This document shows positions 30,248 to 48,278 of a stretch of DNA of 64,000 nt, in pieces. Location: NCBI GenBank assembly GCA_000004985.1, contig GG738860.1; one strand, given 5' to 3'. The position numbers and the translations under genes are program-made. Positions within the stretch are counted from its first letter, which is position 1. Each line of letters starts with the position of its first letter. This DNA is from Naegleria gruberi (taxonomy: Eukaryota). The notes beneath the pieces were generated by a model. The model searched no databases, was not told the DNA's origin, and was given only the letters and a program-made list of their open reading frames with translations.

Positions 30248-32732
30248 ATGTCCAGCAGTGCTAATCAACCTTTCGTAATTGATCCATCAACAATTGTTGT
30301 ATCCGATAACGAAACTGATTTGGATGAAACAATTAAATCCGAGGTTTTGTTGTGGTATCAATCATTTAAATCATTAAAGAATGCTACTCGACAAATGATC
30401 GAAAGAAGTCACTTGAATCCTCTTCTTAAAGTACCTAGAAAGGAGTTATTAAATGTGATGGTTAACTTGAATTTATTGGAATTAAATACTCAAGAAAAGA
30501 TCATAATGTTTGATTTGAATGATTCAATCTTTTCAGTTATTTATCCCGAAACTTATAAGCCAATGGAAGGAGAAGGCCTTTTAGTTACTAGTGATGATCC
30601 TGTTCTTGAAAAGGTTGTTGCAAAGGCTAATAGATTTATTCAAAGAGATAGTGTCAGTATGACATCACCATCCATTGCAATTTCTGTACTTTTATCAAAG
30701 ATTATTGAAATTTTCATCACCAAATCATTTAATGAGCTTACTCCTGGTGTTGTAAATGCCACTGATGATTTATTTGCTTCAAAACTTGATGAATTGGACA
30801 AAGGAGCCTCTAAACTTCTTATTAGCTCCGATGATGAAGATGATGATGAGGATGATGATGAAGACTTTATTCAAACTCCAACACCTCAAAAGGTGAATAT
30901 TTCCGAAAAGAATATATTTGATGTACAAGAGGAAAAGGATATGTCAGAGCTTATTGCAAAGCTTCAAAAAATGTCACAAGATGAAGAATTTACAATGTTT
31001 ACAAATGCATGGGGTAAGTTTCCTTTGAATTCTTAAGCTTATCTTTTTTAGGATCTTTGGCTGGCTATGTAGAATATAACTTGTCAGCAAAGAGTAAACT
31101 GTTGACTGAATTGAAATTTATTAATTCATTGAATGGAAGAAATGGATGGAAAGTGGAATTAGTAGACGAAAATATTTTTGTTTGGACTGTGCATTTGTAT
31201 AATTTCCCAACTTCATCAACAATTGCATCTGGATTACGTTCTTTCCAAGAAAAGTTCAACATTGGTAATGGAGACATTGTGTTGGAAGTTCGTTTTGCTA
31301 ATTATCCTGAAGAGCCTCCACACATTAGAGTTGTATCACCAAGAATTCAATATTTGACAGGTTTAGTACAATTTGATGGAAGTCTTTGTGTTGATTTCTT
31401 AACAAGAAATAATTGGGCTGAAAACAGATGCTTATCTATGGAATCAATCTTTTCTAAAATCAAATCATCGCTCATTGAAAATGATGCCTGCATTGATTTG
31501 AGAACATTCAAACCTTATGATGTCAAGGCCGCTCTTAATAGCTATGTCAGACATACAAGAGATCAAGTCATTCAATCAGGAACCAAGTTCAACGAAAAGT
31601 ATTACATTTTCTCATCTGCTTTCAGTAAGCGTTGTTTTGATGTCAAGGTTAATCTTAGTGCTCTTGGTAAGTTTATCGTAGCAAGTAGAATTTATAGTTA
31701 ACATTTTCAGAAAAGGGTAATAAGGTGTTGTTGCCACCTGAAGCAGCTGATAAGATTTTCAACGATCCTAATGTTGAATTCCCTCTTATTTTTGAAATTC
31801 AAACCAAACATTCTAGAGTATATTGTGGTGTCAGTGGTATGTTGTTTCATAATTTTATATTTCTCTAATTTCAATTTTTTAGAATTTACCAGTCCTTCCA
31901 ATAATATTGTTGTTCCAGAATGGTAAGTAAGATGATTAATTTCATTCAATTAACCTGTATCAGGATGTTTAAGAGTTTGTTTATCACAGAAGGAGCTAAA
32001 GTTAGCATTAGATGTGTAAAGCTTCTTCCTGCATCTTATATAAAGATTCAACCTCACAGCAAGACTTTCTATAATATTGAGAATTATAAGCAAGTATTGG
32101 AGACCACTTTATCTAGATATTCTTGTGTTGCTGAAGGTCAATCATTGCAAGTATACGATGAAAGTGATAAAATTCACATGATTGAAATTATGGAAACTCA
32201 ACCAAGTACTGCTGTATCAGTCCTTGCTGAATCATCAGGTTTCATGGAAGTTGAAATTGATTTTGTTCCTGCTCTTGACTTGTATGATCCAAGTGAACTC
32301 ACTGAAATGCAACAACAAGAACAACAAAAGAGATTGCAAAAGAAGGAAAAACAAAAGTTGGATTTCACCAACAAGACTTTGAAAGAAAGAGAAGAAAAGA
32401 GACAAAAATTGCAAGAACTTCTTGCTACTATTGGAAAGGACACCAAGACAGTATTATTCAAGATCAAGTTCCCTGATGGAAGCTCAGTTAGTCAAAAATT
32501 CCCAGTCACTGCTTCATGCTCAACTCTTTATGACTTTGTTGAATGCATTCAAGAAAAGGATTTGTGGAGACCATTACCATACACAACTAGCTCAGACCTT
32601 CAAATAGCCACAACCTATCCAAAGATTGACATTCCTTGCAACCAAACACTCTCTTTCGAATCTGCTCGTATTACTGGACAAGCTGCTGTTGTTGTCACAC
32701 AACAAGACAGATTCCCTCCAGAAAATCAGTAA
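30248..32732 (+). CDS. Fusion protein: an unknown N-region, an E2/UBC-like domain, a UFD1 domain and a C-terminal UBX domain. Exons are 30248-31013, 31052-31666, 31711-31836, 31883-31922 and 31964-32732.
   Basis: The UBC-like part is GWKVELVDENIFVWTVHL...YPEEPPHIRVVSPRIQYLTGLVQFDGSLCVDFL...WAENRCLSMESIFSKIKSSL. UFD1 is FSKRCFDVKVNLSALGEKGNKVLLPPEAADKIF...RVYCGVSEFTSPSNNIVVPEWMFKSLFITEGAKVSIRCVKL...IKIQPH. The UBX part is TVLFKIKFPDGSSVSQKFP...TTYPKIDI. The UBC-like and UFD1 N-terminal parts share one continuous ORF. Confidence 0.7.
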
Positions 32733-32734
32733 TT

Positions 32735-34486
32735 TTATTTTTCATATTTTCTATAGTGTGTAATTCTATTTTCCAAATTTGTTCTAATTTGAGATATTTC
32801 TTGTAAATTATGGTCCTCTGTCAACATTTCAATAAATGATAGACAGTTGTTTTCATCTGTTGGATTTGCTAAAAATCTAAAAACAATAGATGAATCTGGA
32901 AATATGGATACCATTGCCCTAACACTTGAATGAAATAAGGAGGCAAATTTCTTAGAGTACATTGTATCTTCGTTTGAATTAGTTTGATATTGGAGAATTC
33001 TATTGACCTCATTGCCAATCTCTGTCATTTTTCTGAATGATTCTTCATTAATTAATCTCTTGAAAACAAGGCATGTAAACAAGTCAATTTCATCTCTTCC
33101 CTAATTGATAATGGTCAATTAAGCTATCAAATATATTTGATTTTTAACACTTACAATATGTGGATACCAAGAGAGCTGAACAAAAATATACATGGCATGG
33201 ATAAAACTCTCTCTTGACTCGAGTAGATCAAACAAGCATCCAAGTAAACAGCTATCATCCAGCAAGGAGTTTGTTAACTTTGGAATGTCTACAACGTTAG
33301 CAACAATTTTCACAAGAATAATTCTTCCCTTATCTGCAAGCATATTCCACAAATATCCCAACAACACTTGAAATAGGGCATCTTGTTCAGCATTCATTGA
33401 TTTGGAAAGGTATTTCTGTAAAAGTCCCTTTCTTGATAATTCTAAAAGGCAATACAATGAATATTTTACAATCAATCCTTGCTGATGATAATCACAATCT
33501 TCATCAAGAATATCAACCACTTCTTCTTGTAAATTTCTTGCTAGTTCTTTAGATAACTTGTCGACCTCTTTCAGTAAACGACTGATAATTGCACTAATTG
33601 ACCTTCCACCCAGAAACCAATCGCTCAACATTTTTGTATCCTCACTGATGGTCGCAGCCAATTCAGAATATAATCGAACAATGAATCCATTCACACTCAA
33701 AATGTCATCTAGAATCTTTATGGAACCTTCATTAGGATCCAATGTCAAGTAATCAGCAAGTAAATCCAAAATTCCAAAGTTTACAAAATATCTTGAATAT
33801 TCCTTCACATCTTGGTCCAATAAAACTGATAATGAAAAAACAACATCTCTTATCAGTTTTAAATCAACACAATGTTCATGTGTCTTTAAACATTGAAATT
33901 CTGTTTGCAACTTGTCCACCACAATTTGCAGGTATTTCACTTGTTCACTCATTTCAGTAAATTCAAACATTCCTGAAAGAATTTCTTCCACCTTTCTAAA
34001 TAGAAATCCTTCGTCCTTGTGGTTCATAATCAAATTTGTCTGATTGATAGGGATCAAGTTAGGCAACAGAGCTGGTAGATTAACGCACATTTCCTCAAGC
34101 ATGAGAAAGTACTGATCCTCATACTCTCTATCAAAGTCACTTCTATCCTCTCTATATTCAAATATTGTCCTTAACTGTTTTCTCAATTGATTCGTTACTG
34201 ATTGTTGCTCCTCATCAAGAATGCACAATTTAGAGTGAATAAGTAATGAGTGACATATAGCAATGTCCCTCTCCAATCGATCAGAGTACGTGTTGGAAAT
34301 GATGGATTCTAGGGAAGAATGATCTAAATTACTCTGATCAAACGGATTGCAATCTATTTCTGCATTTTCTGGGGGATTTTCCATGTGATGGAGTTGGGCT
34401 AGTAAGAGATCTTTTGGAGGAAGGCGAGAAACTGCTTCTAGGGCACGTTGCTTTCTTTCATTGAGGATTGTTCGCTTTTCGTTCAT
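32735..34486 (-). CDS. Hypothetical, probably helical-repeat protein of about 566 aa. Exons are 34486-33155 and 33100-32735.
   Basis: The intron is GTAAGT...CAATTAG (54 nt) and is in phase. I recognise no family. Confidence 0.5.
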
Positions 34487-34592: not shown

Positions 34593-34681
34593 GGGCGGTT
34601 AGCTCAGCGGTAGAGCACCGGATTGCAAAGTTAATTGCAGCAGACATCCGATGGTCACGTGTTCGATCCACGTACCACCCT
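34593..34681 (+). tRNA. tRNA-Cys (GCA) with a roughly 16-nt intron 3' of the anticodon.
   Basis: Acceptor stem GGGCGGT paired with ACCACCC, with one mismatch. D-arm is GCTC-AGCGGTAGA-GAGC. Anticodon arm is CCGGA-TTGCAAA, interrupted before its 3' half (ATCCG...). T-arm is ACGTG-TTCGATC-CACGT with discriminator T. Confidence 0.75.
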
Positions 34682-34779: not shown

Positions 34780-35466
34780 ATGTCAAATAGCAACGAAGCA
34801 CAAATTGTTTGGAAACAAGTTGATGATTATTTCGAAGATATGCTGTGTCCAGTAGATCCTATTTTAAAACATGCAGTTGAGGAGAGTGAAAAACATGGTC
34901 TTCCTCCTCATCAAGTTGCTCCCAATCAAGGAAAATTATTGGAAATCTTTTCACACATGATCCAAGCAAGAAAAATTCTTGAAATTGGGACGTTAGGAGC
35001 ATACAGTACCATTCACTTGGCTAGATCTGTCCAGGAGCGAAATGGTAAAGTAATTAGTTTGGAATTCAATCCGAAACATGCCACTGTTGCCAGAGAAAAT
35101 GTTAAATTTGCAAATTTGCAAGAAATTATTGAAATTCGTGAAGGAAAAGCTGCAGAATTAATGCAAGGAATGATTGACAATAACGAAGGACCATTCGATT
35201 TAATTTTCATTGATGCAGATAAGCCAAGTAATCCAATTTATTTGGAGCTTTCCCTTCAATTATCCAAAAGTGGAAGTATTATTATTGGAGATAATGTTGT
35301 GAGAAATGGCCAAGTTGTAAATGATGAATCACAAGATGCCAATGTAATTGGTGTTCGACAATTTATGAAATTAATGAAGGAAAATCCAAAACTGAAAGCA
35401 TGCACAGCATTACAAACAGTTGGCTGTAAAGGATATGATGGATTTAGTATTGCAATTGTAAAATAG
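34780..35466 (+). CDS. Class I SAM-dependent O-methyltransferase, family 3 (caffeoyl-CoA OMT/COMTD1/YrrM-like). Single exon.
   Basis: LEIGTLGAYSTIHLARSV, GKVISLEFNPKHATVARENV, FDLIFIDADKPSNPIYLE and IIIGDNVVRNGQV are the PF01596 signature blocks. Confidence 0.75.
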   Translation: MSNSNEAQIVWKQVDDYFEDMLCPVDPILKHAVEESEKHGLPPHQVAPNQGKLLEIFSHMIQARKILEIGTLGAYSTIHLARSVQERNGKVISLEFNPKHATVARENVKFANLQEIIEIREGKAAELMQGMIDNNEGPFDLIFIDADKPSNPIYLELSLQLSKSGSIIIGDNVVRNGQVVNDESQDANVIGVRQFMKLMKENPKLKACTALQTVGCKGYDGFSIAIVK

Positions 35467-35870
35467 ATGACCAATCATGCAAATATTGGGATAATCACAC
35501 TAATGAATCAAATAATTTTGCAAAAATACTGACACTTCACATATATGGAAGGTTACCTTTCGTATTCATTACAAAAATATTGAAAATTATAATGGAAGAT
35601 AATCTCGAGATGGATGCCAAATCTACGGCTGATTATTCTTTGTTTTCGAGTGGTGTTCTTTCACCTTTGTCTCGTGATAAGAAATGTTAGTTATTTTCCT
35701 AACCAAATCAGGAAAATGTCCACAACATAGAAGGGTTAAGGTTCCATCATGGAAATTTCGTGATAGAGGGTAAAACACTCAGCGTTGAAGGACCTCTTGT
35801 TTTACATGTTGTTTTTTAATCGCAAACTCTACTAATTCAGTTCGAAAAGAAAAGAGACGAAAGCTCCATA

Positions 35871-36953
35871 ATGTTAATGAATCCAAGTCGAAGAAATTAT
35901 CATCAACCACATCCACAACAACAACATCAGGCAGAACCATGGAACTGCCATGGTTGTATCTCGAGAGAATCAGCACAGCAACAACATGCAACTCTCCCAA
36001 CAATATCTGACCTCTATTCACAGTTGATTTTGTCTGGATTGGAGGGTAATCATTCTGCATGTAGTGATCCTCACTTTCGTCAAGCTGTGCATGATTATAA
36101 AAAGTTCCTCGACTATTATAACAAGATGAAGAGAGTCAGTTTTAGTAGCATGGCGAGTAATAAGAGCACATTGTCAAATTATCCTCAATATTCAAGTCAT
36201 TCAGTTAATAGTGATAATTGTAAATCTAATGTAAATACTAACAATGAACAGAATGTGTTCAGACATGATTGTAAATTAGCACCTTTTAGATATGAAGAGA
36301 ATAGCTCTTGCTGTGAAATGATCAAAATTCCAAGTATTGATCAATTAACCAAACAGCTGATTCCAAATTCATGTACATCTTTGTTGCCAATTGCTGATTC
36401 GAAAGAGAACTCAATGAATGTAGAAAAGAAACGTACAAGAAGATATGAAGAAGATGGATTAACAAAATCAAAGAAAGTTAAACAGAATCCACATTTAATT
36501 CAAATTAGTCCAACAGAGATTCTTCAATCATCAACAAGCACCGTGTACATTTCCAAACAACAAGCCAAATTATTCGATAGTGTGAAAGGAACAACATGCC
36601 ATCAATGTAAACAGAAAACTCTCGATATCAAAACCAATTGCAAGCATTGTTGTAATCTATCATTGAACAATACTACAAATGGAAGAGGTGTATTTTGTTC
36701 CAATTGTCTAAAGAATCGATATGGAGAAGAGGTATGTAACTATTTCATTTTTATCATTTTACCATTTTACTATTAGTTAGAAGAGGTGTTAAAGAATGAA
36801 AAGTGGTCTTGTCCAGTATGTAGAGAAATTTGTAATTGTAGTTCATGTCGAAGAAAAGGAGGTAAAGAACCAATTTCCATCACAACACGAGAAGCACTCA
36901 AAAAAGGATTTAAATCAGTTCATGAAATGTTAGTGGCAAATAATAAACTTTAA
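35871..36953 (+). CDS. CDCA7-like protein with a C-terminal zf-4CXXC_R1 zinc finger. Exons are 35871-36731 and 36777-36953.
   Basis: TTCHQCKQKTLDIKTNCKHC...FCSNCLKNRYGEE, then exon 2 LEEVLKNEKWSCPVCREICNCSSCRRKGG. The intron is a 45-nt GTATGT...TATTAG. The N-terminus is Q/H-rich. Confidence 0.6.
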
Positions 36954-37036
36954 TTTTGCAATCCTTTTATACAGAAAATCTTTCAAATCCGTTCAATATC
37001 TCAAAATGTGCTTTTTTAATCCCGGCACAACAAGAA

Positions 37037-37987
37037 TTATTCCTTAAGAGCAGCCTTAGACTTATCAATACCAATAATATACTTCTTGAAACCTGGAACA
37101 GCGAGACCAAGACAAACAAATGAAGCAATTGAGAATGCAACAAAATATTTGAGAAGTTCTGAAAATGTAGCACTTCTCTTATATTCTTCTTCACTATATC
37201 TAGATCTAATATTCTTCCACCTATCTTCAAGATTGTATCCAGGATCATAAATACTTTTCATGGCTTCACCTCCACCAAGAATTTCTCCACGAGCTGTATG
37301 ATTAGAAACTGTAGCTTGTTCATTATTAATTTGAGAGACTACACTTTTGATATCCTCCACTCCCTTCAACTTGGCTTCCTTCAAAACTTTGAGGGTTCTT
37401 TGTTGTCCGGATTGTTTCTTCAACTTTTGTTCAACGTTGAAAATAGCTTGAATTGATGATTTCAAATTTTCATCAACTCCTTCCTTTTCCATCATATTCT
37501 TTAACAAACTTCTAGCCTTTTCTTGTTCTTTTTGAATTTCTTCCATGTATTCATTTTCTTCTGGAGACAAATCAGAAGCAGCCAATCCTTTTGATCTTTC
37601 TTCAAGAGCCAATCTTCCTTCTCCTTCAGCAGGAATGTGGAAAATAGCCTTTTTAATACGTTGATTTTCTCTAATATCTTGTAATTTTTCTGCTGTTAAA
37701 GAATTAAAATCAAATCCTTCTTCCGGAATAGAAACAGGTGGAACTATAACACTAAATTGTCCACTATTTAATATATCTTGAACTCTGTTTGATGATCTAA
37801 TATCAATTTCTTGACTTGGTTGTTTTTCATTTTGTTGCAAAGTACTAGTCGAGAATGAACGGGAAGATGATGCACAAGCACAACAAGAACAATTATGATG
37901 ATGATTACCAACAACAATAACAGAGGTGCGAGCAAGTGTTTGCTGTCTTGTAGTAGAAGGAACAGCGCGAACAACTTTCTTCAACAT
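37037..37987 (-). CDS. Hypothetical 316-aa protein with an N-terminal presequence-like region, a Cys/His cluster and a C-terminal TM segment. Possibly a mitochondrial membrane protein.
   Basis: A single ORF, MLKKVVRAVPSTTRQQTLARTS..., ending in a hydrophobic FVAFSIASFVCLGLAV. Confidence 0.45.
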   Translation of the reverse strand: MLKKVVRAVPSTTRQQTLARTSVIVVGNHHHNCSCCACASSSRSFSTSTLQQNEKQPSQEIDIRSSNRVQDILNSGQFSVIVPPVSIPEEGFDFNSLTAEKLQDIRENQRIKKAIFHIPAEGEGRLALEERSKGLAASDLSPEENEYMEEIQKEQEKARSLLKNMMEKEGVDENLKSSIQAIFNVEQKLKKQSGQQRTLKVLKEAKLKGVEDIKSVVSQINNEQATVSNHTARGEILGGGEAMKSIYDPGYNLEDRWKNIRSRYSEEEYKRSATFSELLKYFVAFSIASFVCLGLAVPGFKKYIIGIDKSKAALKE

Positions 37988-38312: not shown

Positions 38313-41300
38313 TTATTGTTGCTGATTCCACAACAAGGCCCTCTCGAATCCTTGAGCTAATTTGGCTAAATTGGTGGCTAATAATTCATTTTCCTCAGAG
38401 GAAGAGAAGTGGTTGAGCGATTCGTTAAATTCTGCAGCATCCTTAATATTTTGGAATTTCCATTTCTTTTTAGAGAATCCCTTGCTGAGGTCCTTTGGAA
38501 GTTTGATCTTTCTTCTAATGACCTTGTCGTGAGAATTTGAACCAAGAACCATATTTGAGAAGGAATCAAAGAGAGGTTTACATGATGAGATGTAACCTGT
38601 TTCTAATAAGATTGACTCTATAAATTGTTGACCTGTTGCATCTGTGTTTTGATTTACATTCCAATAGGCAATTGTCATGGAAAGTTTTTGAACAAAGTTT
38701 GAAATTGCACTCTTTCCTTCCAATGTGAGAATATCAAATACAGCAAAAAGCTTATTCATGGATGGTTTTGAAACAATCTTGGCTATTCCCCTAGCAGAGT
38801 CCCAAGAGATGGTCGTCTTTTCATTCAATTGTATTGAAAGATCAAAGCAGTGGAAGGTTTCTTCAAAATCAGACTTGTTTGTTGAAGGTTTGGAACCTTT
38901 CTTTACATTTTCTTGGTAAAGGCTCAATTGTACAGTTAGTTTGGTAAGATTACTTTCCTTTAAGAAATAGGATGTCAAAATTGAAGAACTATCGCCTAGA
39001 GTCTTTACGATTGTATCAATTCCCTTTGGATCGACCTCATTCTCAAATCTCTCAAGTTTACTCTTGAGATTTGATAAATTGTTCAATGAATCAGGATTCT
39101 TAAATATTGGTTCCTCTGTTGCTTGTAAAATTTTGGTGGAGGTGATTGGTTCAAACTTTGCAATCATTACGTGTTTTGGAGAAGTTGTGATCTCAGTCAT
39201 AATGTCCTTAATATCATCTGATGTATCTGCAGATGCCATATTACTGTCAACAGTAAATAATTTAGTTATCATTTCCCTGAAAGATGACTTTCTATGTATC
39301 TTTCCTGCTGTGAGTTTGGTAGAATCTTTTGGATCTAAGCTATTTGGAGAGGAAGAAATAAGGATCGATGGAGAATTGGTTGGTGATGAAACAATGGTCT
39401 CTTCAACTTCTTGTTGTTCGTCAATATTCAGCTTGGAGAGAGCTCTGGATGCCTTTTCAAGGTTCACGCTAATTTCTCTTTCAGTTCTGGCAACCAATAA
39501 TTCCTTAGCGATGAGGGTGAGGTTTTGTAATTCATCAAGCCAATATTCGTACAGAACGGGTACAACCTTTTCAATAAGTTCTAATTGCCCAGAGTTGCGG
39601 GCATTCTCCATTGGAAGTCTATTGTGAGCACTATCTCTTTCTGTTACAAGATCACAAATTGAGTTGTGTTCGAAATATTCCATAACTCCATTAAAATCAC
39701 CATTAGTAAAGCAATCATTCAAATCTAAAAATTCATCATCGAATGGTGATTGGATTTGATTTACAGCACCATTTCCATTCAGTAAGTCCAACATACTTGT
39801 ATTATCTTGTTGTACTTGTGTTGTTACTGCAGCTTCATATACCATCCTATCCTCAGCATAAGTGAAAATCATTTCGGTCTCAGGTTCCTGAACTTGGACA
39901 TAGGCATCTCTTGAACATACTGTAACAACATAGCTGTTTTGATTTGCATTTGGTTTTGGAGGTACAGTAAAACCAATTGAGTGCTTTGATGTGATACCAC
40001 CACTATACGAAAGCTTAGTTCCTCCAAATGTTACAATAAATTTAGCGTCTTGATGTAATTCCTTTGATGAAATAACAGCAACAGGTGTTCCTTCATGGCC
40101 TTCAGTTGGATAAATTTTGTCAAATTTGTAGGAAACAATTTGAATAGATCCAGAGCTAGTATTATGAAGTTGATTGTAAACCTGCAACAACAATTGACTT
40201 TGATGAATGAAATCCTCAAGTAGTGCACTTTTTTGTGGATCCTTCTCATACATTTGATTCAGTATTCTTGCAGAAAGAATTTCTTTCAAATCAGTTACTA
40301 ACTTTGGTGAGATTTGAGGAGTTGCCAATTGTTGTTGTTGTTGATTTTGGGGAGGTGAAGTAAGATGGGTACTATGTGATTCATTGCTACCTTCCTCATC
40401 AGAATGATCTTCTGGAGCCTTTCTCTTTGGTTTACAAATATCTTGTCTCTTTGCACTCTGGAAAGGTTTTGTTTCGATCCAATACAAAAGTGATGGATCT
40501 GATTTTGGTTGAGTTGGGTACTTGTATTTGAGCATTCTCTTAGTGAACTTATTGCTTGGAAGAGCTAAAAACTTTGTGCAGAGAACAACACCCAATCTAA
40601 ATCTATCCTTTTGTGGTTTCTTCTCACCATTATCCAATCTTCCTAAATTTTTATCCAATTGATAGGTATATACATTTGGTTTAATCTTGATTCTGTCATG
40701 TTTCATTAAACAGTAAGAAATGTCCTTATCATCACCATCTTCTCCTCTAATATAAAAATGTGCATAGAGCTCTTTTTTCATATTCTTTACGAAATGATCC
40801 AAAAAAGTTGGAGAAAATTTAACTGTAACTGGTGCAGCTATTTTCTTTGATCCATGTTTGATTAATTCATCAGATCTATTGGCAAGTGAGCCAATAATAT
40901 ACTTGGTATTGTCATCAAAATCTTCTTTCATTGTGAGAGACATGATTGGAGCTTCAAATGAATTAGTATTGACTTGATCAATTAGAACTTTGTTGGTATT
41001 CTTTTGATCCAAAATAAGTTGGAATTTGATTGTAAACTTTGAATATACAGAAGTATCATGTAAATTCAAAACGAAACCCTTTGGTTTAAAGACAGCCTGA
41101 GTACATCCACCAAATTCTTGAGTATAGGATTGAGTAATTAAATCGCTCAATTTAATATTGGTATTGAGTGGAAATTCGGAGAAGGTGAAGATATCATTGC
41201 AACTTGGATCGCTACGTTTAGTTGCAGCAATATGACAACTTAAAAAACATGTGGATTCTTCATCTTTACATTTATCCATTAAACGATCACAATTTACAAT

Positions 41301-41609
41301 TCTCAAAACAATTTCTGGAAGAAGAGGATAGTTTGCTCTTGTTTTCTCAGTACCAACAGCAAAAAATCCCATGCTTTGCGGTAGATCTTTCACCACATGC
41401 ATTAAATTACCACTATTTACCACTGCAGTTGTACCACTCGATAATAAATTATGAATACTAGATAACGATGGCGAAGGAATTACATTGCTAGTTGTAAAAT
41501 TTGATGAAGTCGATGATGTAGAAGGTGATGGAAATTGTTGTTCTCTTCCTCTGCCAATACTATTTACGTTCATTTCAGCCGGAACCTCTTCTTTCTGCTT
41601 GCTAGTCAA
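38313..41609 (-). CDS. Large 1098-aa hypothetical protein with a Ser-rich N-terminus and a central IPT/TIG-like beta-sandwich segment. Possibly a novel Ig-fold transcription factor.
   Basis: One continuous ORF. The TIG-like stretch is IYPTEGHEGTPVAVISSKELHQDAKFIVTFGGTKLSYSGG...YVVTVCSRD. The flanking region is basic. Confidence 0.45.
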   Translation of the reverse strand: MTSKQKEEVPAEMNVNSIGRGREQQFPSPSTSSTSSNFTTSNVIPSPSLSSIHNLLSSGTTAVVNSGNLMHVVKDLPQSMGFFAVGTEKTRANYPLLPEIVLRIVNCDRLMDKCKDEESTCFLSCHIAATKRSDPSCNDIFTFSEFPLNTNIKLSDLITQSYTQEFGGCTQAVFKPKGFVLNLHDTSVYSKFTIKFQLILDQKNTNKVLIDQVNTNSFEAPIMSLTMKEDFDDNTKYIIGSLANRSDELIKHGSKKIAAPVTVKFSPTFLDHFVKNMKKELYAHFYIRGEDGDDKDISYCLMKHDRIKIKPNVYTYQLDKNLGRLDNGEKKPQKDRFRLGVVLCTKFLALPSNKFTKRMLKYKYPTQPKSDPSLLYWIETKPFQSAKRQDICKPKRKAPEDHSDEEGSNESHSTHLTSPPQNQQQQQLATPQISPKLVTDLKEILSARILNQMYEKDPQKSALLEDFIHQSQLLLQVYNQLHNTSSGSIQIVSYKFDKIYPTEGHEGTPVAVISSKELHQDAKFIVTFGGTKLSYSGGITSKHSIGFTVPPKPNANQNSYVVTVCSRDAYVQVQEPETEMIFTYAEDRMVYEAAVTTQVQQDNTSMLDLLNGNGAVNQIQSPFDDEFLDLNDCFTNGDFNGVMEYFEHNSICDLVTERDSAHNRLPMENARNSGQLELIEKVVPVLYEYWLDELQNLTLIAKELLVARTEREISVNLEKASRALSKLNIDEQQEVEETIVSSPTNSPSILISSSPNSLDPKDSTKLTAGKIHRKSSFREMITKLFTVDSNMASADTSDDIKDIMTEITTSPKHVMIAKFEPITSTKILQATEEPIFKNPDSLNNLSNLKSKLERFENEVDPKGIDTIVKTLGDSSSILTSYFLKESNLTKLTVQLSLYQENVKKGSKPSTNKSDFEETFHCFDLSIQLNEKTTISWDSARGIAKIVSKPSMNKLFAVFDILTLEGKSAISNFVQKLSMTIAYWNVNQNTDATGQQFIESILLETGYISSCKPLFDSFSNMVLGSNSHDKVIRRKIKLPKDLSKGFSKKKWKFQNIKDAAEFNESLNHFSSSEENELLATNLAKLAQGFERALLWNQQQ

Positions 41610-46595: not shown

Positions 46596-48278
46596 TTAAT
46601 CTAAAATATCATCCAGTCTTGCATTATATTCAATACTTGTGTTATAAGCTCCTGAAATAGAGTTTGATTGGGCAATGGGAATCATTCTTATTGATTCTTG
46701 TCTCAAACTGTCATGTGTTGCACTATTTCTATAAGAGTTACTATTATTTTCATTTCCTCTAGAATTATTATTTTGGAAGTATGGTCCACTAAGAATTGAA
46801 CTTGCTTGAGTTTGATGTATTATTCTCATTCCGTGTTGATTACCACTACTTGCCACAGAGGAATATAATGGTGTCTCATTATTGAAATAATTTGGAAGGA
46901 ACGTTCGTGGTGCATTGTCATAGTGAGCAGATTCTTCTTCAGAGCATTCATCATCATCATAGTGATTATCCAAATGATAATAGTAAACAGATTTTGGAAC
47001 AATATTGTCTGCACTTGGTGAATCGAGTGCAATCTTTGGTCTTTCTGTATAAATAACTCCAAACTTGATTTCTTCCTCTTCGTTCATATTCTTATCAGAA
47101 AAATCAGGTGATTTTTGTTTGAGAGGTGTTTCAGAGCTTTCTCCACTAAGAAGGGATGATTTGGAATTGACCTTTTTAACCTTTTTCTTAGAACAGCAAT
47201 AACTCTTATATTTTGAAAAGAAATGATGTCCATAAAGAATCATATTCAAGAATCCTTGAAGTGGATTAGTAATTGCTTGTAATAAATCCAACCAAAAAAT
47301 ACCAGAAATCATGGTAGTACTCGTTGGTGATTGTGCAATAATAATTGATTCTTTACCAAATTAGAAATCACATCAAGTATTTGTAAACTTACCAACAAGA
47401 CGATTAATAAAAGCAGGAATCCATGTAATGAAAAATGCAATCATAATAAGAGAGAAATTGAGTATTGTTCGTTTGCCCAATTGTTGATATCTGTCACTAA
47501 GTGATAATACCTCATATCTATTACTCTTCCTTCTATGCATTCTAAAGCAAATGCAAACTCCCAAGAAAAACACTGCACACATACTCACACAAATGTATAC
47601 AATCAAGAATGTAAAGAATCTAAAGTTAAGAAATTGTGAATGATCATGAGCTAATCCAATCCAACACCACTGTTGTAAATTATCTATTCTATTGAATTTC
47701 TGTGTTAGTGACACAGTTACAGTATATAATAGTGGAACAATCCAACAAATTAAATGGAAAATAACCTCAAGAATTATCTTCCTTCTCCTATGCTTTTCCT
47801 CTGAAAAGTGTGGAGTGACACTCAAAAACAGTTGTAAACAAATGCAAGTACTCCAAAACACAGAACTCAGTTCAAAACAAGTCATTAAAAACCCTTGTAA
47901 GAAACAACACCATTCATATTCTAAACTCAACCCGAATAACGAAATCAAATAACTAAAGCTTGCAACTAGATCGCTAACAGATAAATAAAACACCAACCGA
48001 TGATTCATAGCTGTCATTCTATAATTATTTCTCTTTCTAGATTTCTTGTGTTTTCTCCATGAAAGTATTGTAAACAGTATTGTACTGAATATAATAAATG
48101 AAGATCCGAATATTGACAAGATGGAGCTAACTCCAGTTGTGTACCTGAGTGCATTTTGTTCTATGGACACTGTCGTTTCGTTACTAGGTATCGTAGAATT
48201 GTCTTCAACTATCACATATTGACTCAATATATTCCATGAATATTCCATCAGAGATGATGGTATAATAGATTGTATCAT
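46596..48278 (-). CDS. 7TM receptor of the cAMP-receptor/Git3-like GPCR class. Exons are 48278-47393 and 47350-46596.
   Basis: Seven hydrophobic segments. CICLQLFLSV and FWLDLLQAITNPLQGFLN motifs. Basic and Ser-rich cytoplasmic tail. The intron is a 42-nt GTAAGT...GGTAAAG. Confidence 0.5.

What the first reader, a model, noticed from the sequence alone, without database searches (positions are those of the whole stretch)
35871..36953. CDCA7-like zf-4CXXC_R1 gene, which implies a maintenance 5mC system
The C-terminal Cys pattern is CHQC...CKHC...CSNC..(intron)..CPVC..CNCSSC. This is the signature of the CDCA7/CDCA7L zinc finger, which in other eukaryotes works with the HELLS/LSH remodeller and DNMT1 at hemimethylated CpG. 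It co-occurs phylogenetically with maintenance DNA methylation. Finding it here predicts that this AT-rich genome methylates cytosine.
Basis: partly seen in the sequence, partly recalled or inferred. Interest (0 to 1): 0.5.

Follow-up and report, generated by a model that had tools for sequence, protein, structure and literature searches.

The report
Naegleria CDCA7 gene, already described
This is the known CDCA7-type methyl-DNA-sensor gene of the amoeba Naegleria gruberi; its public model is cut short by a missed 45-base intron, and the predicted cytosine methylation of this genome has already been measured and published.

Summary
Window 35871..36953 (+) holds a two-exon gene: exon 1 35871..36731, a 45-nt GT-AG phase-0 intron 36732..36776, and exon 2 36777..36953. 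It encodes 345 aa. The C-terminal 104 residues match Pfam zf-4CXXC_R1 end to end (E 4.8e-33), match solved CDCA7 structures (E 1e-26), and fold like them.

The window is Naegleria gruberi. The gene is NAEGRDRAFT_65903 / XP_002678720.1. Funabiki et al. [quoted passage not shown] Sarre et al. (MBE 2025) have measured 5mC in this genome. It is sparse (0.28%), heterochromatic, carried out by two DNMT1 orthologues, and not CpG-specific.

So the interpretation and its prediction are supported, but neither is new. Three small additions come from this work:
- The "truncation" is an unannotated intron, at a position shared with Willaertia.
- The 5mC/guanine-reading arginine (human R274) is lysine in all 14 proteins of this group, whose named members are all heteroloboseans. 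It is arginine in 133 other relatives whose motif could be read.
- The canonical HELLS-binding helix motif is not detectable in this group.

No DNMT, SNF2 or SRA domain was found among the 30 long ORFs of the window that were scanned.

The parts
35871..36731 (+). Exon 1 (aa 1-287). The N-terminal ~235 aa are mostly disordered, with two predicted helices at aa 45-57 and 67-89. The first half of the zinc finger follows (Cys 1-6: C243, C246, C257, C260, C276, C279).
   Evidence: ORF list and translation. 100% identical to XP_002678720.1 over these residues. AF2 confidence profile.
36732..36776 (+). 45-nt GT-AG intron (GTATGTAAC...ACTATTAG), phase 0, after ...NRYGEE. It is not annotated in the public model, which reads through it to a TAG at 36774..36776.
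   Evidence: Removing it restores the frame into a conserved C-terminal half that aligns without gaps to 10 homologues. The Willaertia magna orthologue has a 56-nt phase-0 intron after the same NRYGEE (L003 6900..6955). No transcript evidence could be obtained.
36777..36953 (+). Exon 2 (aa 288-345 plus stop). It holds the second half of the zinc finger (Cys 7-11: C299, C302, C306, C308, C311) and the C-terminal helix.
   Evidence: pLDDT is 83-91 across this part.
36576..36932 (+). Coding span of the zf-4CXXC_R1 (CDCA7-type hemimethylated-DNA zinc finger) domain, aa 236-339, interrupted by the intron.
   Evidence: Pfam PF10497 E 4.8e-33, profile 2-99/99. PDB CDCA7 chains E 1e-26. The Foldseek top 5 PDB hits are all CDCA7, TM 0.59-0.65 normalised to target, and the next hit has E > 1.
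36609..36611 (+). Codon AAA for K247. This is the position of human CDCA7 R274, the ICF3-mutated residue that contacts the 5mC methyl and pairs with the 3' guanine. Q248 (= human Q275) follows at 36612..36614.
   Evidence: Residue-by-residue alignment to human and mouse CDCA7. K occurs in 14 proteins and R in 133. The role of R274 and Q275 is taken from PMC11343034.

Best explanation
The locus is the Naegleria gruberi orthologue of CDCA7 (NAEGRDRAFT_65903). It is a 345-aa protein with a disordered N-terminal region and one C-terminal zf-4CXXC_R1 zinc finger.

Shown here:
- the gene structure;
- the complete domain, with all 11 signature cysteines;
- conservation of G294, R304, Q275 and S330 equivalents (G273, R283, Q248, S309);
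- a CDCA7-like predicted fold;
- orthology with the N. fowleri gene by synteny;
- that the public 301-aa model is truncated only because a 45-nt intron was not annotated.

Inferred from work on animal and plant CDCA7: the finger sits in the DNA major groove and recognises a methylated cytosine on one strand of newly replicated DNA. It would then help a HELLS/DDM1-type remodeller expose nucleosomal DNA to the DNMT1-type methyltransferases of this amoeba, sustaining its sparse heterochromatic 5mC.

My confidence that it is the CDCA7-family gene is about 0.95. My confidence that it works as a hemimethylated-DNA sensor feeding a HELLS-DNMT1 pathway is about 0.5. The reasons for the lower figure are that the 5mC/G-reading arginine is lysine, that no canonical HELLS-binding helix is found, and that Naegleria methylation is not CpG-specific.
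For: - Domain: Pfam E 4.8e-33 over the full profile.
- Solved CDCA7 structures: E 1.5e-26, 44-50% identity.
- AF2 model: pLDDT 75-91 over aa 240-345. Foldseek returns only CDCA7 chains with E <= 0.001.
- Exon 2 aligns to Willaertia, Acrasis, N. fowleri and N. lovaniensis homologues. Invariant residues include C299, P300, C302, C306, N307, C308, S309, C311 and R312.
- Shared intron position with Willaertia.
- Synteny with N. fowleri: UFD1-domain gene, a 455-aa gene, then this gene, then a 316-aa and a 1098-aa gene.
- No other Pfam domain in the protein, as in CDCA7 orthologues.
- Literature: XP_002678720 is listed as likely CDCA7, with HELLS, a UHRF1-like protein and a DNMT in the same genome. 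All 82 CDCA7-encoding species examined also have HELLS (PMC10538959).
- Literature: 5mC is present in N. gruberi at H3K9me3/H3K27me3 regions, with two DNMT1 orthologues (PMC12344493).
- Literature: CDCA7 fingers of human, sea anemone, oyster and Arabidopsis all bind hemimethylated DNA selectively (PMC11343034).
Against: - R274 is K247 here, so the strict 'class I' definition (three ICF residues conserved) is not met.
- In the human structure R274 makes the van der Waals contact to the methyl group and the Hoogsteen-like pairing with the CpG guanine. A lysine cannot make the same bidentate contact (my inference).
- A profile of the conserved N-terminal helix motif of animal and plant CDCA7 detects 32 of 103 held-out arginine-type proteins at E < 0.01. 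It detects none of 15 lysine-type proteins, this one included.
- N. gruberi 5mC shows no CpG preference and weak CpG symmetry (r = 0.25), and most sites are only partly methylated. That pattern is not what a hemi-CpG copying system usually produces.
- There is no transcript evidence for the splice, and no binding data exist for any heterolobosean protein.
Confidence: 0.6

Rival explanations
1. It is a CDCA7-derived reader with changed specificity. The clade-wide R274-to-K change relaxes or alters the requirement for a guanine 3' of the methylated cytosine. The finger would then sense methylated or hemimethylated cytosine in any context, matching the context-free (CX) methylation of Naegleria. 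It may still work with HELLS through a diverged interface.
For: K occupies this position in all 14 proteins of this group, whose named members are all heteroloboseans, and R in 133 other relatives. The lysine group is monophyletic in a neighbour-joining tree, with 149/200 bootstraps. R274 is the residue that pairs with the CpG guanine. N. gruberi methylates all four dinucleotide contexts equally. Q275, R304, S330 and all zinc ligands are kept, so the DNA-binding surface is otherwise intact.
Against: Lysine is a conservative replacement and may simply preserve CpG reading. There are no methylomes for the other heteroloboseans. The correlation rests on one species. No R274K mutant data were found in the searchable literature.
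Confidence: 0.25
2. It is a HELLS-independent chromatin or DNA-binding protein that merely retains the zinc finger. It would act, for example, as a heterochromatin reader or transcriptional repressor, not as part of methylation upkeep.
For: No canonical HELLS-binding helix motif was detected. The N-terminal region is not detectably similar even to congeners or to the SPLKKRK motif of related proteins. Other zf-4CXXC_R1 classes (DDR, IBM1/JmjC, DMM-1) have roles not directly tied to methylation upkeep (PMC10538959).
Against: The protein has the single-domain architecture of CDCA7 orthologues and keeps G294, so it is not class II or III. All 82 CDCA7-encoding species examined also have HELLS, N. 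gruberi included. AF2 predicts two N-terminal helices (aa 45-57 and 67-89) that could be a diverged interface. Short helices are easily missed by a sequence profile: only 32 of 103 held-out positives were detected.
Confidence: 0.1
3. The public 301-aa model is right. The gene would be a decaying or truncated copy whose finger lacks its last five cysteines and cannot fold, and the downstream ORF would be a relic.
For: This is the deposited annotation (XP_002678720.1). A near-identical metagenome contig was called the same way by an automatic gene caller. No spliced transcript or protein was found in the collections searched.
Against: Exon 2 is an intact 58-codon frame carrying every invariant residue of the family. 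The intron has canonical GT-AG ends and phase 0, is short and AT-rich like the other heterolobosean introns seen here, and lies at the same codon boundary as a Willaertia intron. The collections used mostly hold intron-blind gene calls, so absence of the spliced product there means little. Funabiki et al. also treated the downstream ORF as part of the domain.
Confidence: 0.05

Closest known systems
CDCA7 / CDCA7L (human, mouse, Xenopus CDCA7e): hemimethylated-CpG sensor and activator of the HELLS remodeller (ICF3 gene). Solved structures 8TLE-8TLL and 8YV8.
   Same: Single C-terminal zf-4CXXC_R1 domain with all 11 cysteines. G294, R304, Q275 and S330 equivalents are kept. Identity in the finger is 44-50% and the predicted fold matches. 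The N-terminus is disordered and there is no enzymatic domain.
   Different: R274 is lysine. The loop between the 4th and 5th cysteines has 15 residues instead of 7, i.e. 8 more. The C3-C4 spacing is CxxC rather than CxxxxC. The N-terminal leucine-zipper / HELLS-binding helix motif is not detectable. The host methylome is sparse and not CpG-specific.
Plant class I CDCA7 (Arabidopsis NP_195428 and paralogue), which works with DDM1 and MET1
   Same: Single-domain architecture. The fourth cysteine is shifted towards the N-terminus, giving CxxC spacing as described for Arabidopsis class I. The protein is small.
   Different: The plant proteins keep R274 and the N-terminal YE..R..RI..N...M..LG helix. 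The Naegleria protein has neither.
Heterolobosean orthologues: N. fowleri XP_044560541 (960 aa), N. lovaniensis XP_044550608 (989 aa), Willaertia magna KAL9654266 (342 aa), Acrasis kona KAL0488019 (290 aa, annotated 'cell division cycle-associated 7-like')
   Same: The finger is 55-69% identical and carries the same K at the R274 position. The C-terminal SITTREALK helix is shared. The locus is syntenic with N. fowleri, and Willaertia shares the adjacent upstream 455-aa gene. The intron position is shared with Willaertia.
   Different: N. fowleri and N. lovaniensis carry a roughly 600-aa His/Gln/Asn/Ser-rich N-terminal extension that is absent here. The N. fowleri model has its only intron elsewhere. 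The SPLKKRK motif of Willaertia, Acrasis and related proteins is not found here.
Class II and class III zf-4CXXC_R1 proteins (plant DDR1-3; fungal CDCA7F; IBM1/JMJ24 and Neurospora DMM-1 with JmjC)
   Same: They belong to the same Pfam domain family.
   Different: Class II is defined by replacement of G294, and class III by deletions, loss of all ICF residues and a JmjC domain. This protein keeps G273 and has no extra domain. N. gruberi's JmjC-linked copy is a different gene (XP_002683406).

Membership tests
Pfam PF10497 zf-4CXXC_R1 | Score above the curated gathering threshold over the whole domain | tested here: met
   113.7 bits against a cut-off of 22.7, E 4.8e-33, profile 2-99/99, aa 236-339 of the spliced protein.
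CDCA7 orthologue (class I zf-4CXXC_R1, Funabiki et al. 2023) | All eleven signature cysteines present | tested here: met
   C243, C246, C257, C260, C276, C279, C299, C302, C306, C308 and C311 are present. The fourth is shifted to a CxxC spacing, as in Arabidopsis class I. This is met only after the intron is removed.
CDCA7 orthologue (class I zf-4CXXC_R1, Funabiki et al. 2023) | ICF residue R274 conserved | tested here: not met
   K247 aligns with R274 (CHQC-K-QKT against CHQC-R-QKT). The same K occurs in all 14 proteins of this group, and R in 133 others. The change is conservative, but it falls on the residue that reads 5mC and the 3' G.
CDCA7 orthologue (class I zf-4CXXC_R1, Funabiki et al. 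2023) | ICF residues G294 and R304 conserved | tested here: met
   G273 (GRG-VFC) and R283 (LKN-R-YGE) are conserved. Because G294 is kept, the protein is not class II.
CDCA7 orthologue (class I zf-4CXXC_R1, Funabiki et al. 2023) | One zf-4CXXC_R1 domain and no other annotated domain | tested here: met
   Pfam finds no other family above threshold. AF2 shows only two short helices outside the finger.
CDCA7 as hemimethylated-DNA sensor (Wassing et al. 2024) | Q275 (clashes with a second methyl group) and S330 (backbone contact) conserved | tested here: met
   Q248 and S309 are invariant in the alignment. Their roles are taken from PMC11343034.
CDCA7 as hemimethylated-DNA sensor (Wassing et al. 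2024) | Selective binding of hemimethylated over unmethylated and fully methylated DNA | not testable with these tools
   This needs recombinant protein and pull-down or EMSA. It has been shown for human, Nematostella, Crassostrea and Arabidopsis homologues only.
CDCA7-HELLS complex (CHIRRC) | N-terminal HELLS-binding helix (leucine-zipper region, ...R..NI..N...L..L...) | tested here: not met
   A profile was built from 37 animal and plant helices. It hits 32/103 held-out arginine-type proteins at E < 0.01 and 0/15 lysine-type proteins (best E 0.7, at an irrelevant site). That this motif is the HELLS-binding helix is my inference from its position and conservation. A diverged helix (aa 45-57 or 67-89) is not excluded.
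CDCA7-HELLS-DNMT1 pathway | HELLS, a DNMT1-type methyltransferase and UHRF1 encoded in the same genome; 5mC present | not testable with these tools
   None of the 30 longest window ORFs scanned (about 200 aa and more) has a DNMT, SNF2 or SRA domain, and the rest of the genome is not available here. The literature reports HELLS XP_002674368, UHRF1-like XP_002680882 and DNMT XP_002682263. It also reports two DNMT1 orthologues and measured 5mC.
Orthology within Naegleria | Conserved gene neighbourhood | tested here: met
   Four flanking genes are found in the same order and orientation around the N. fowleri gene (tblastn E 1e-48 to 0).

The most novel reading that the evidence does not exclude
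The heterolobosean CDCA7 lineage replaced the 5mC-Arg-G reading arginine with lysine and lost the canonical HELLS-binding helix. The finger would then be a sensor of methylated or hemimethylated cytosine without a CpG requirement. It would have co-adapted with DNMT1 orthologues that methylate every dinucleotide context, making a non-CpG version of the CDCA7 pathway in a deep-branching eukaryote.
Probability: 0.2. Interest if true: 0.5.

Novelty: already known. Interest (0 to 1): 0.18.

Why it matters
The gene, its family assignment and its link to HELLS and DNMT in this species were published in 2023, and the predicted methylation was measured in 2025. The finding therefore confirms known biology rather than opening anything new.

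The practical value is a corrected gene model. The public protein XP_002678720.1 (301 aa) should be a 345-aa two-exon product. This removes the "C-terminal truncation / sequencing error" caveat from the only Discoba CDCA7 used in arguments that the CDCA7-HELLS-DNMT module dates back to the last eukaryotic common ancestor.

The lysine at the 5mC/G-reading position, together with the context-free methylome, gives a cheap and specific binding experiment.

Tried and rejected
- Transcript proof of splicing. The exact 345-aa product is not in the 15-billion-protein collection. A 29-nt exon-exon junction pattern has no match in the JGI metagenome contigs. Splicing therefore rests on homology, splice signals and a shared intron position.
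- The near-identical metagenome contig L001 (99.0% over 2378 nt) has no difference inside the intron and one in exon 2. That is too little variation to say anything about selection.
- I expected the NRYGEE intron in N. fowleri too. Its annotated model has no intron there; its single 71-nt intron is further upstream.
- Partner genes in the window. Thirty ORFs of about 200 aa or more were scanned with Pfam. None has a DNMT, SNF2 or SRA domain. The adjacent methyltransferase (34780..35466) is a small-molecule O-methyltransferase type (Methyltransf_3), not a DNA methyltransferase.
- N-terminal homology. There is no significant similarity of aa 1-230 to the N. fowleri protein, to the animal/plant helix profile or to the SPLKKRK motif of Willaertia, Acrasis and related proteins.
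- A tRNA-like appearance of an ORF translation near 34600 was checked. ARAGORN finds no tRNA in the window.
- A literature search for an R274K CDCA7 mutant found nothing.
- Class II and class III membership were considered and rejected, because G294 is kept and there is no DDT, WHIM or JmjC domain.

Full report
**What is in the sequence**

Window 35871..36953 on the + strand holds an ORF that starts at ATG 35871 and, read straight through, stops at TAG 36774..36776 (301 aa). Directly after ...NRYGEE the sequence reads GTATGTAAC...ACTATTAG (36732..36776, 45 nt). Removing it joins exon 1 in phase 0 to a second exon, 36777..36953, and gives a 345-aa protein. The other strand has only short ORFs of 93 aa or less in this interval.

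**Is it more than chance, and is the domain call right?**

Yes.
- The spliced protein matches Pfam PF10497 (zf-4CXXC_R1) at 113.7 bits against a cut-off of 22.7, E 4.8e-33, over positions 2-99 of the 99-position profile.
- Against all PDB sequences the only hits are CDCA7 chains (8tlk, 8tle, 8yv8; E 1.5e-26 to 1.1e-24).
- An AlphaFold2 model built on an 11-sequence alignment has pLDDT 75-91 over residues 240-345. It is largely disordered before that, except for two helices at 45-57 and 67-89.
- Foldseek against the PDB returns five matches with E <= 0.001, all CDCA7 (best 8yv8_K, E 3e-8, TM 0.65 normalised to the target). The next hit has E > 1.

**Whose gene it is**

The unspliced 301-aa product is 100% identical to XP_002678720.1 / EFC45976.1 / NAEGRDRAFT_65903, "predicted protein [Naegleria gruberi]". 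The window is therefore N. gruberi nuclear DNA, which fits its 31-37% G+C.

**The gene model**

Ten homologues all continue past NRYGE[ED] with W-x-CP-x-C-x3-CNCSxCR...P-x-S-x-TTREALK. They include Willaertia magna, Acrasis kona and several unnamed environmental proteins. N. gruberi exon 2 aligns to them without gaps and carries every invariant residue. The N. fowleri orthologue is 69% identical over residues 232-340.

In the Willaertia gene I solved the exon structure by exhaustive search. It has a 56-nt GT-AG phase-0 intron after the same NRYGEE (L003 6900..6955), plus a second intron upstream. The N. fowleri model has no intron at this point; its single 71-nt intron lies upstream.

I could not obtain transcript evidence. 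The spliced protein is absent from the protein collection, and a junction-spanning 29-mer has no match in the metagenome contigs. The splice is therefore very well supported but inferred.

**Orthology**

The flanking genes of the window are a UFD1-domain gene at 31920..32732 (+), a 455-aa gene (-), a 316-aa gene (-) and a 1098-aa gene (-). They are found in the same order and orientation around the N. fowleri gene. The 455-aa gene is also the upstream neighbour in Willaertia.

**What is already published**

Funabiki et al. [quoted passage not shown] Their supplementary alignment already appends the downstream ORF, with an X at the stop codon. The same paper lists the following for N. gruberi:
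- HELLS: XP_002674368
- a UHRF1-like protein: XP_002680882
- an orphan DNMT: XP_002682263
- DNMT2: XP_002681354
- a JmjC-linked zf-4CXXC_R1 protein: XP_002683406

It also reports that all 82 CDCA7-encoding species in its 180-species panel have HELLS.

Sarre et al. (Mol Biol Evol 2025, PMC12344493) measured the N. gruberi methylome by EM-seq, WGBS and nanopore. They found:
- 0.28% global 5mC, above a non-conversion rate of about 0.1%;
- 447 hypermethylated regions that coincide with H3K9me3 and H3K27me3;
- enrichment on repeats and on silent genes;
- two DNMT1 orthologues.

They found no CpG preference, with all four dinucleotide contexts methylated equally. CpG symmetry was weak (r = 0.25) and few sites were fully methylated.

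Both are already in the literature.

**What this analysis adds**

1. The "truncation" is a missed 45-nt intron, not a sequencing error.

2. The protein does not strictly meet the published class I definition, which requires eleven cysteines and three ICF residues. It has all eleven cysteines, G273 (= G294) and R283 (= R304), but K247 replaces R274.
   - I pooled the best 150 representatives of a 1.84-billion-protein search (1411 hits at E <= 0.001) with the earlier hits, and the motif could be read in 147 of them. Fourteen have K at this position and 133 have R.
   - Where the lysine proteins are named, they come from Naegleria gruberi, N. fowleri, N. lovaniensis, Willaertia and Acrasis.
   - They form one group in a neighbour-joining tree of the domain, supported in 149 of 200 bootstraps.
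   - In the cryo-EM structure of human CDCA7 on a nucleosome, R274 touches the methyl group of 5mC and pairs with the adjacent guanine. Q275 would clash with a second methyl group (PMC11343034). Q248 is conserved here.

3. A profile of the conserved N-terminal helix motif of animal and plant CDCA7 recovers 32 of 103 held-out arginine-type proteins at E < 0.01. It recovers none of the 15 lysine-type proteins. I take this motif to be the HELLS-binding helix from its position and conservation, and from my recollection of the human leucine-zipper sequence. That identification is an inference.

**How it most likely works**

By homology, the finger binds the major groove at a cytosine methylated on one strand. 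It would thereby direct a HELLS-type remodeller to nucleosomal DNA behind the replication fork, so that the DNMT1 orthologues can act.

The domain, its fold and its key contacts other than R274 are shown here. The presence of the partners and of 5mC is taken from the two papers. DNA-binding specificity and the HELLS interaction are inferred and carry real doubt, for three reasons: the K247 substitution, the undetected helix, and a methylome that does not look like simple copying of hemi-CpG.

The main rival is an altered-specificity reader, with the CpG requirement relaxed to suit context-free methylation. I give that about 0.2-0.25. A HELLS-independent role gets about 0.1. A truly truncated, decaying gene gets about 0.05.

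**Surroundings**

Pfam scans of 30 ORFs of about 200 aa or more across the window found no DNA methyltransferase, SNF2 ATPase or SRA domain. The upstream gene at 34780..35466 is a Methyltransf_3 O-methyltransferase, a small-molecule type, and is unrelated to DNA methylation. It has no counterpart in the syntenic N. fowleri locus.

**Verdict**

Interest is low. The residual novelty lies in the corrected gene model and in the clade-specific R274K change, which a simple binding assay can test.

Noticed in passing
window 34780..35466 (+): A 228-aa Methyltransf_3 O-methyltransferase gene (Pfam E 1.4e-35) lies between the 455-aa gene and the CDCA7-like gene. The syntenic N. fowleri locus (L004) has no tblastn match to it, so it looks like a lineage-specific insertion, or a loss in N. 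fowleri. Its origin (for example lateral transfer) was not examined.
   Followed up: partly
L004 6001..8954 (N. fowleri) and P0013 (N. lovaniensis), compared with window 35871..36953: The orthologues in N. fowleri and N. lovaniensis are 960 and 989 aa. They carry a long His/Gln/Asn/Ser-rich low-complexity N-terminus. The N. gruberi, Willaertia and Acrasis proteins are 290-345 aa. Outside the finger, the N. gruberi and N. fowleri proteins show no significant similarity.
   Followed up: partly
L003 6900..6955; L004 8515..8585; window 36732..36776: The phase-0 intron after NRYGEE is shared by N. gruberi and Willaertia magna. It is absent from the annotated N. fowleri gene, whose only intron is upstream. 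This points to intron loss within Naegleria or to a shared ancestral intron.
   Followed up: yes
L001 and L002 (ENA ERZ929261 / run ERR1078381, project PRJEB11402): A contig labelled as metagenome is 99.0% identical to window 35596..37967 over 2378 nt. It differs by 17 substitutions and a 6-nt insertion at 36122 in exon 1. This is a second N. gruberi-like strain present in an environmental or mixed sample.
   Followed up: partly
P0008, P0010, P0011 (unnamed JGI and Logan proteins): Three lysine-type relatives carry an insertion of about 15-18 residues between the 4th and 5th cysteines and have Ser in place of G294 (SSHFC). By the published definition that makes them class II-like within the same clade. 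Their organisms are unknown.
   Followed up: no
window 37037..37987 (-), 38313..41609 (-), 33119..34486 (-): Three conserved neighbours of 316, 1098 and 455 aa have no Pfam match at E <= 1e-5. All three have clear counterparts in N. fowleri (32-69% identity), and the 455-aa gene also has one in Willaertia. They are lineage-restricted genes of unknown function.
   Followed up: no
window 47373..48278 (-): A 301-aa ORF has a rhodopsin-family 7TM receptor match (PF00001, E 9.4e-9, 35.6 bits against a cut-off of 30.5). It is a GPCR-like gene in an amoeboflagellate.
   Followed up: no
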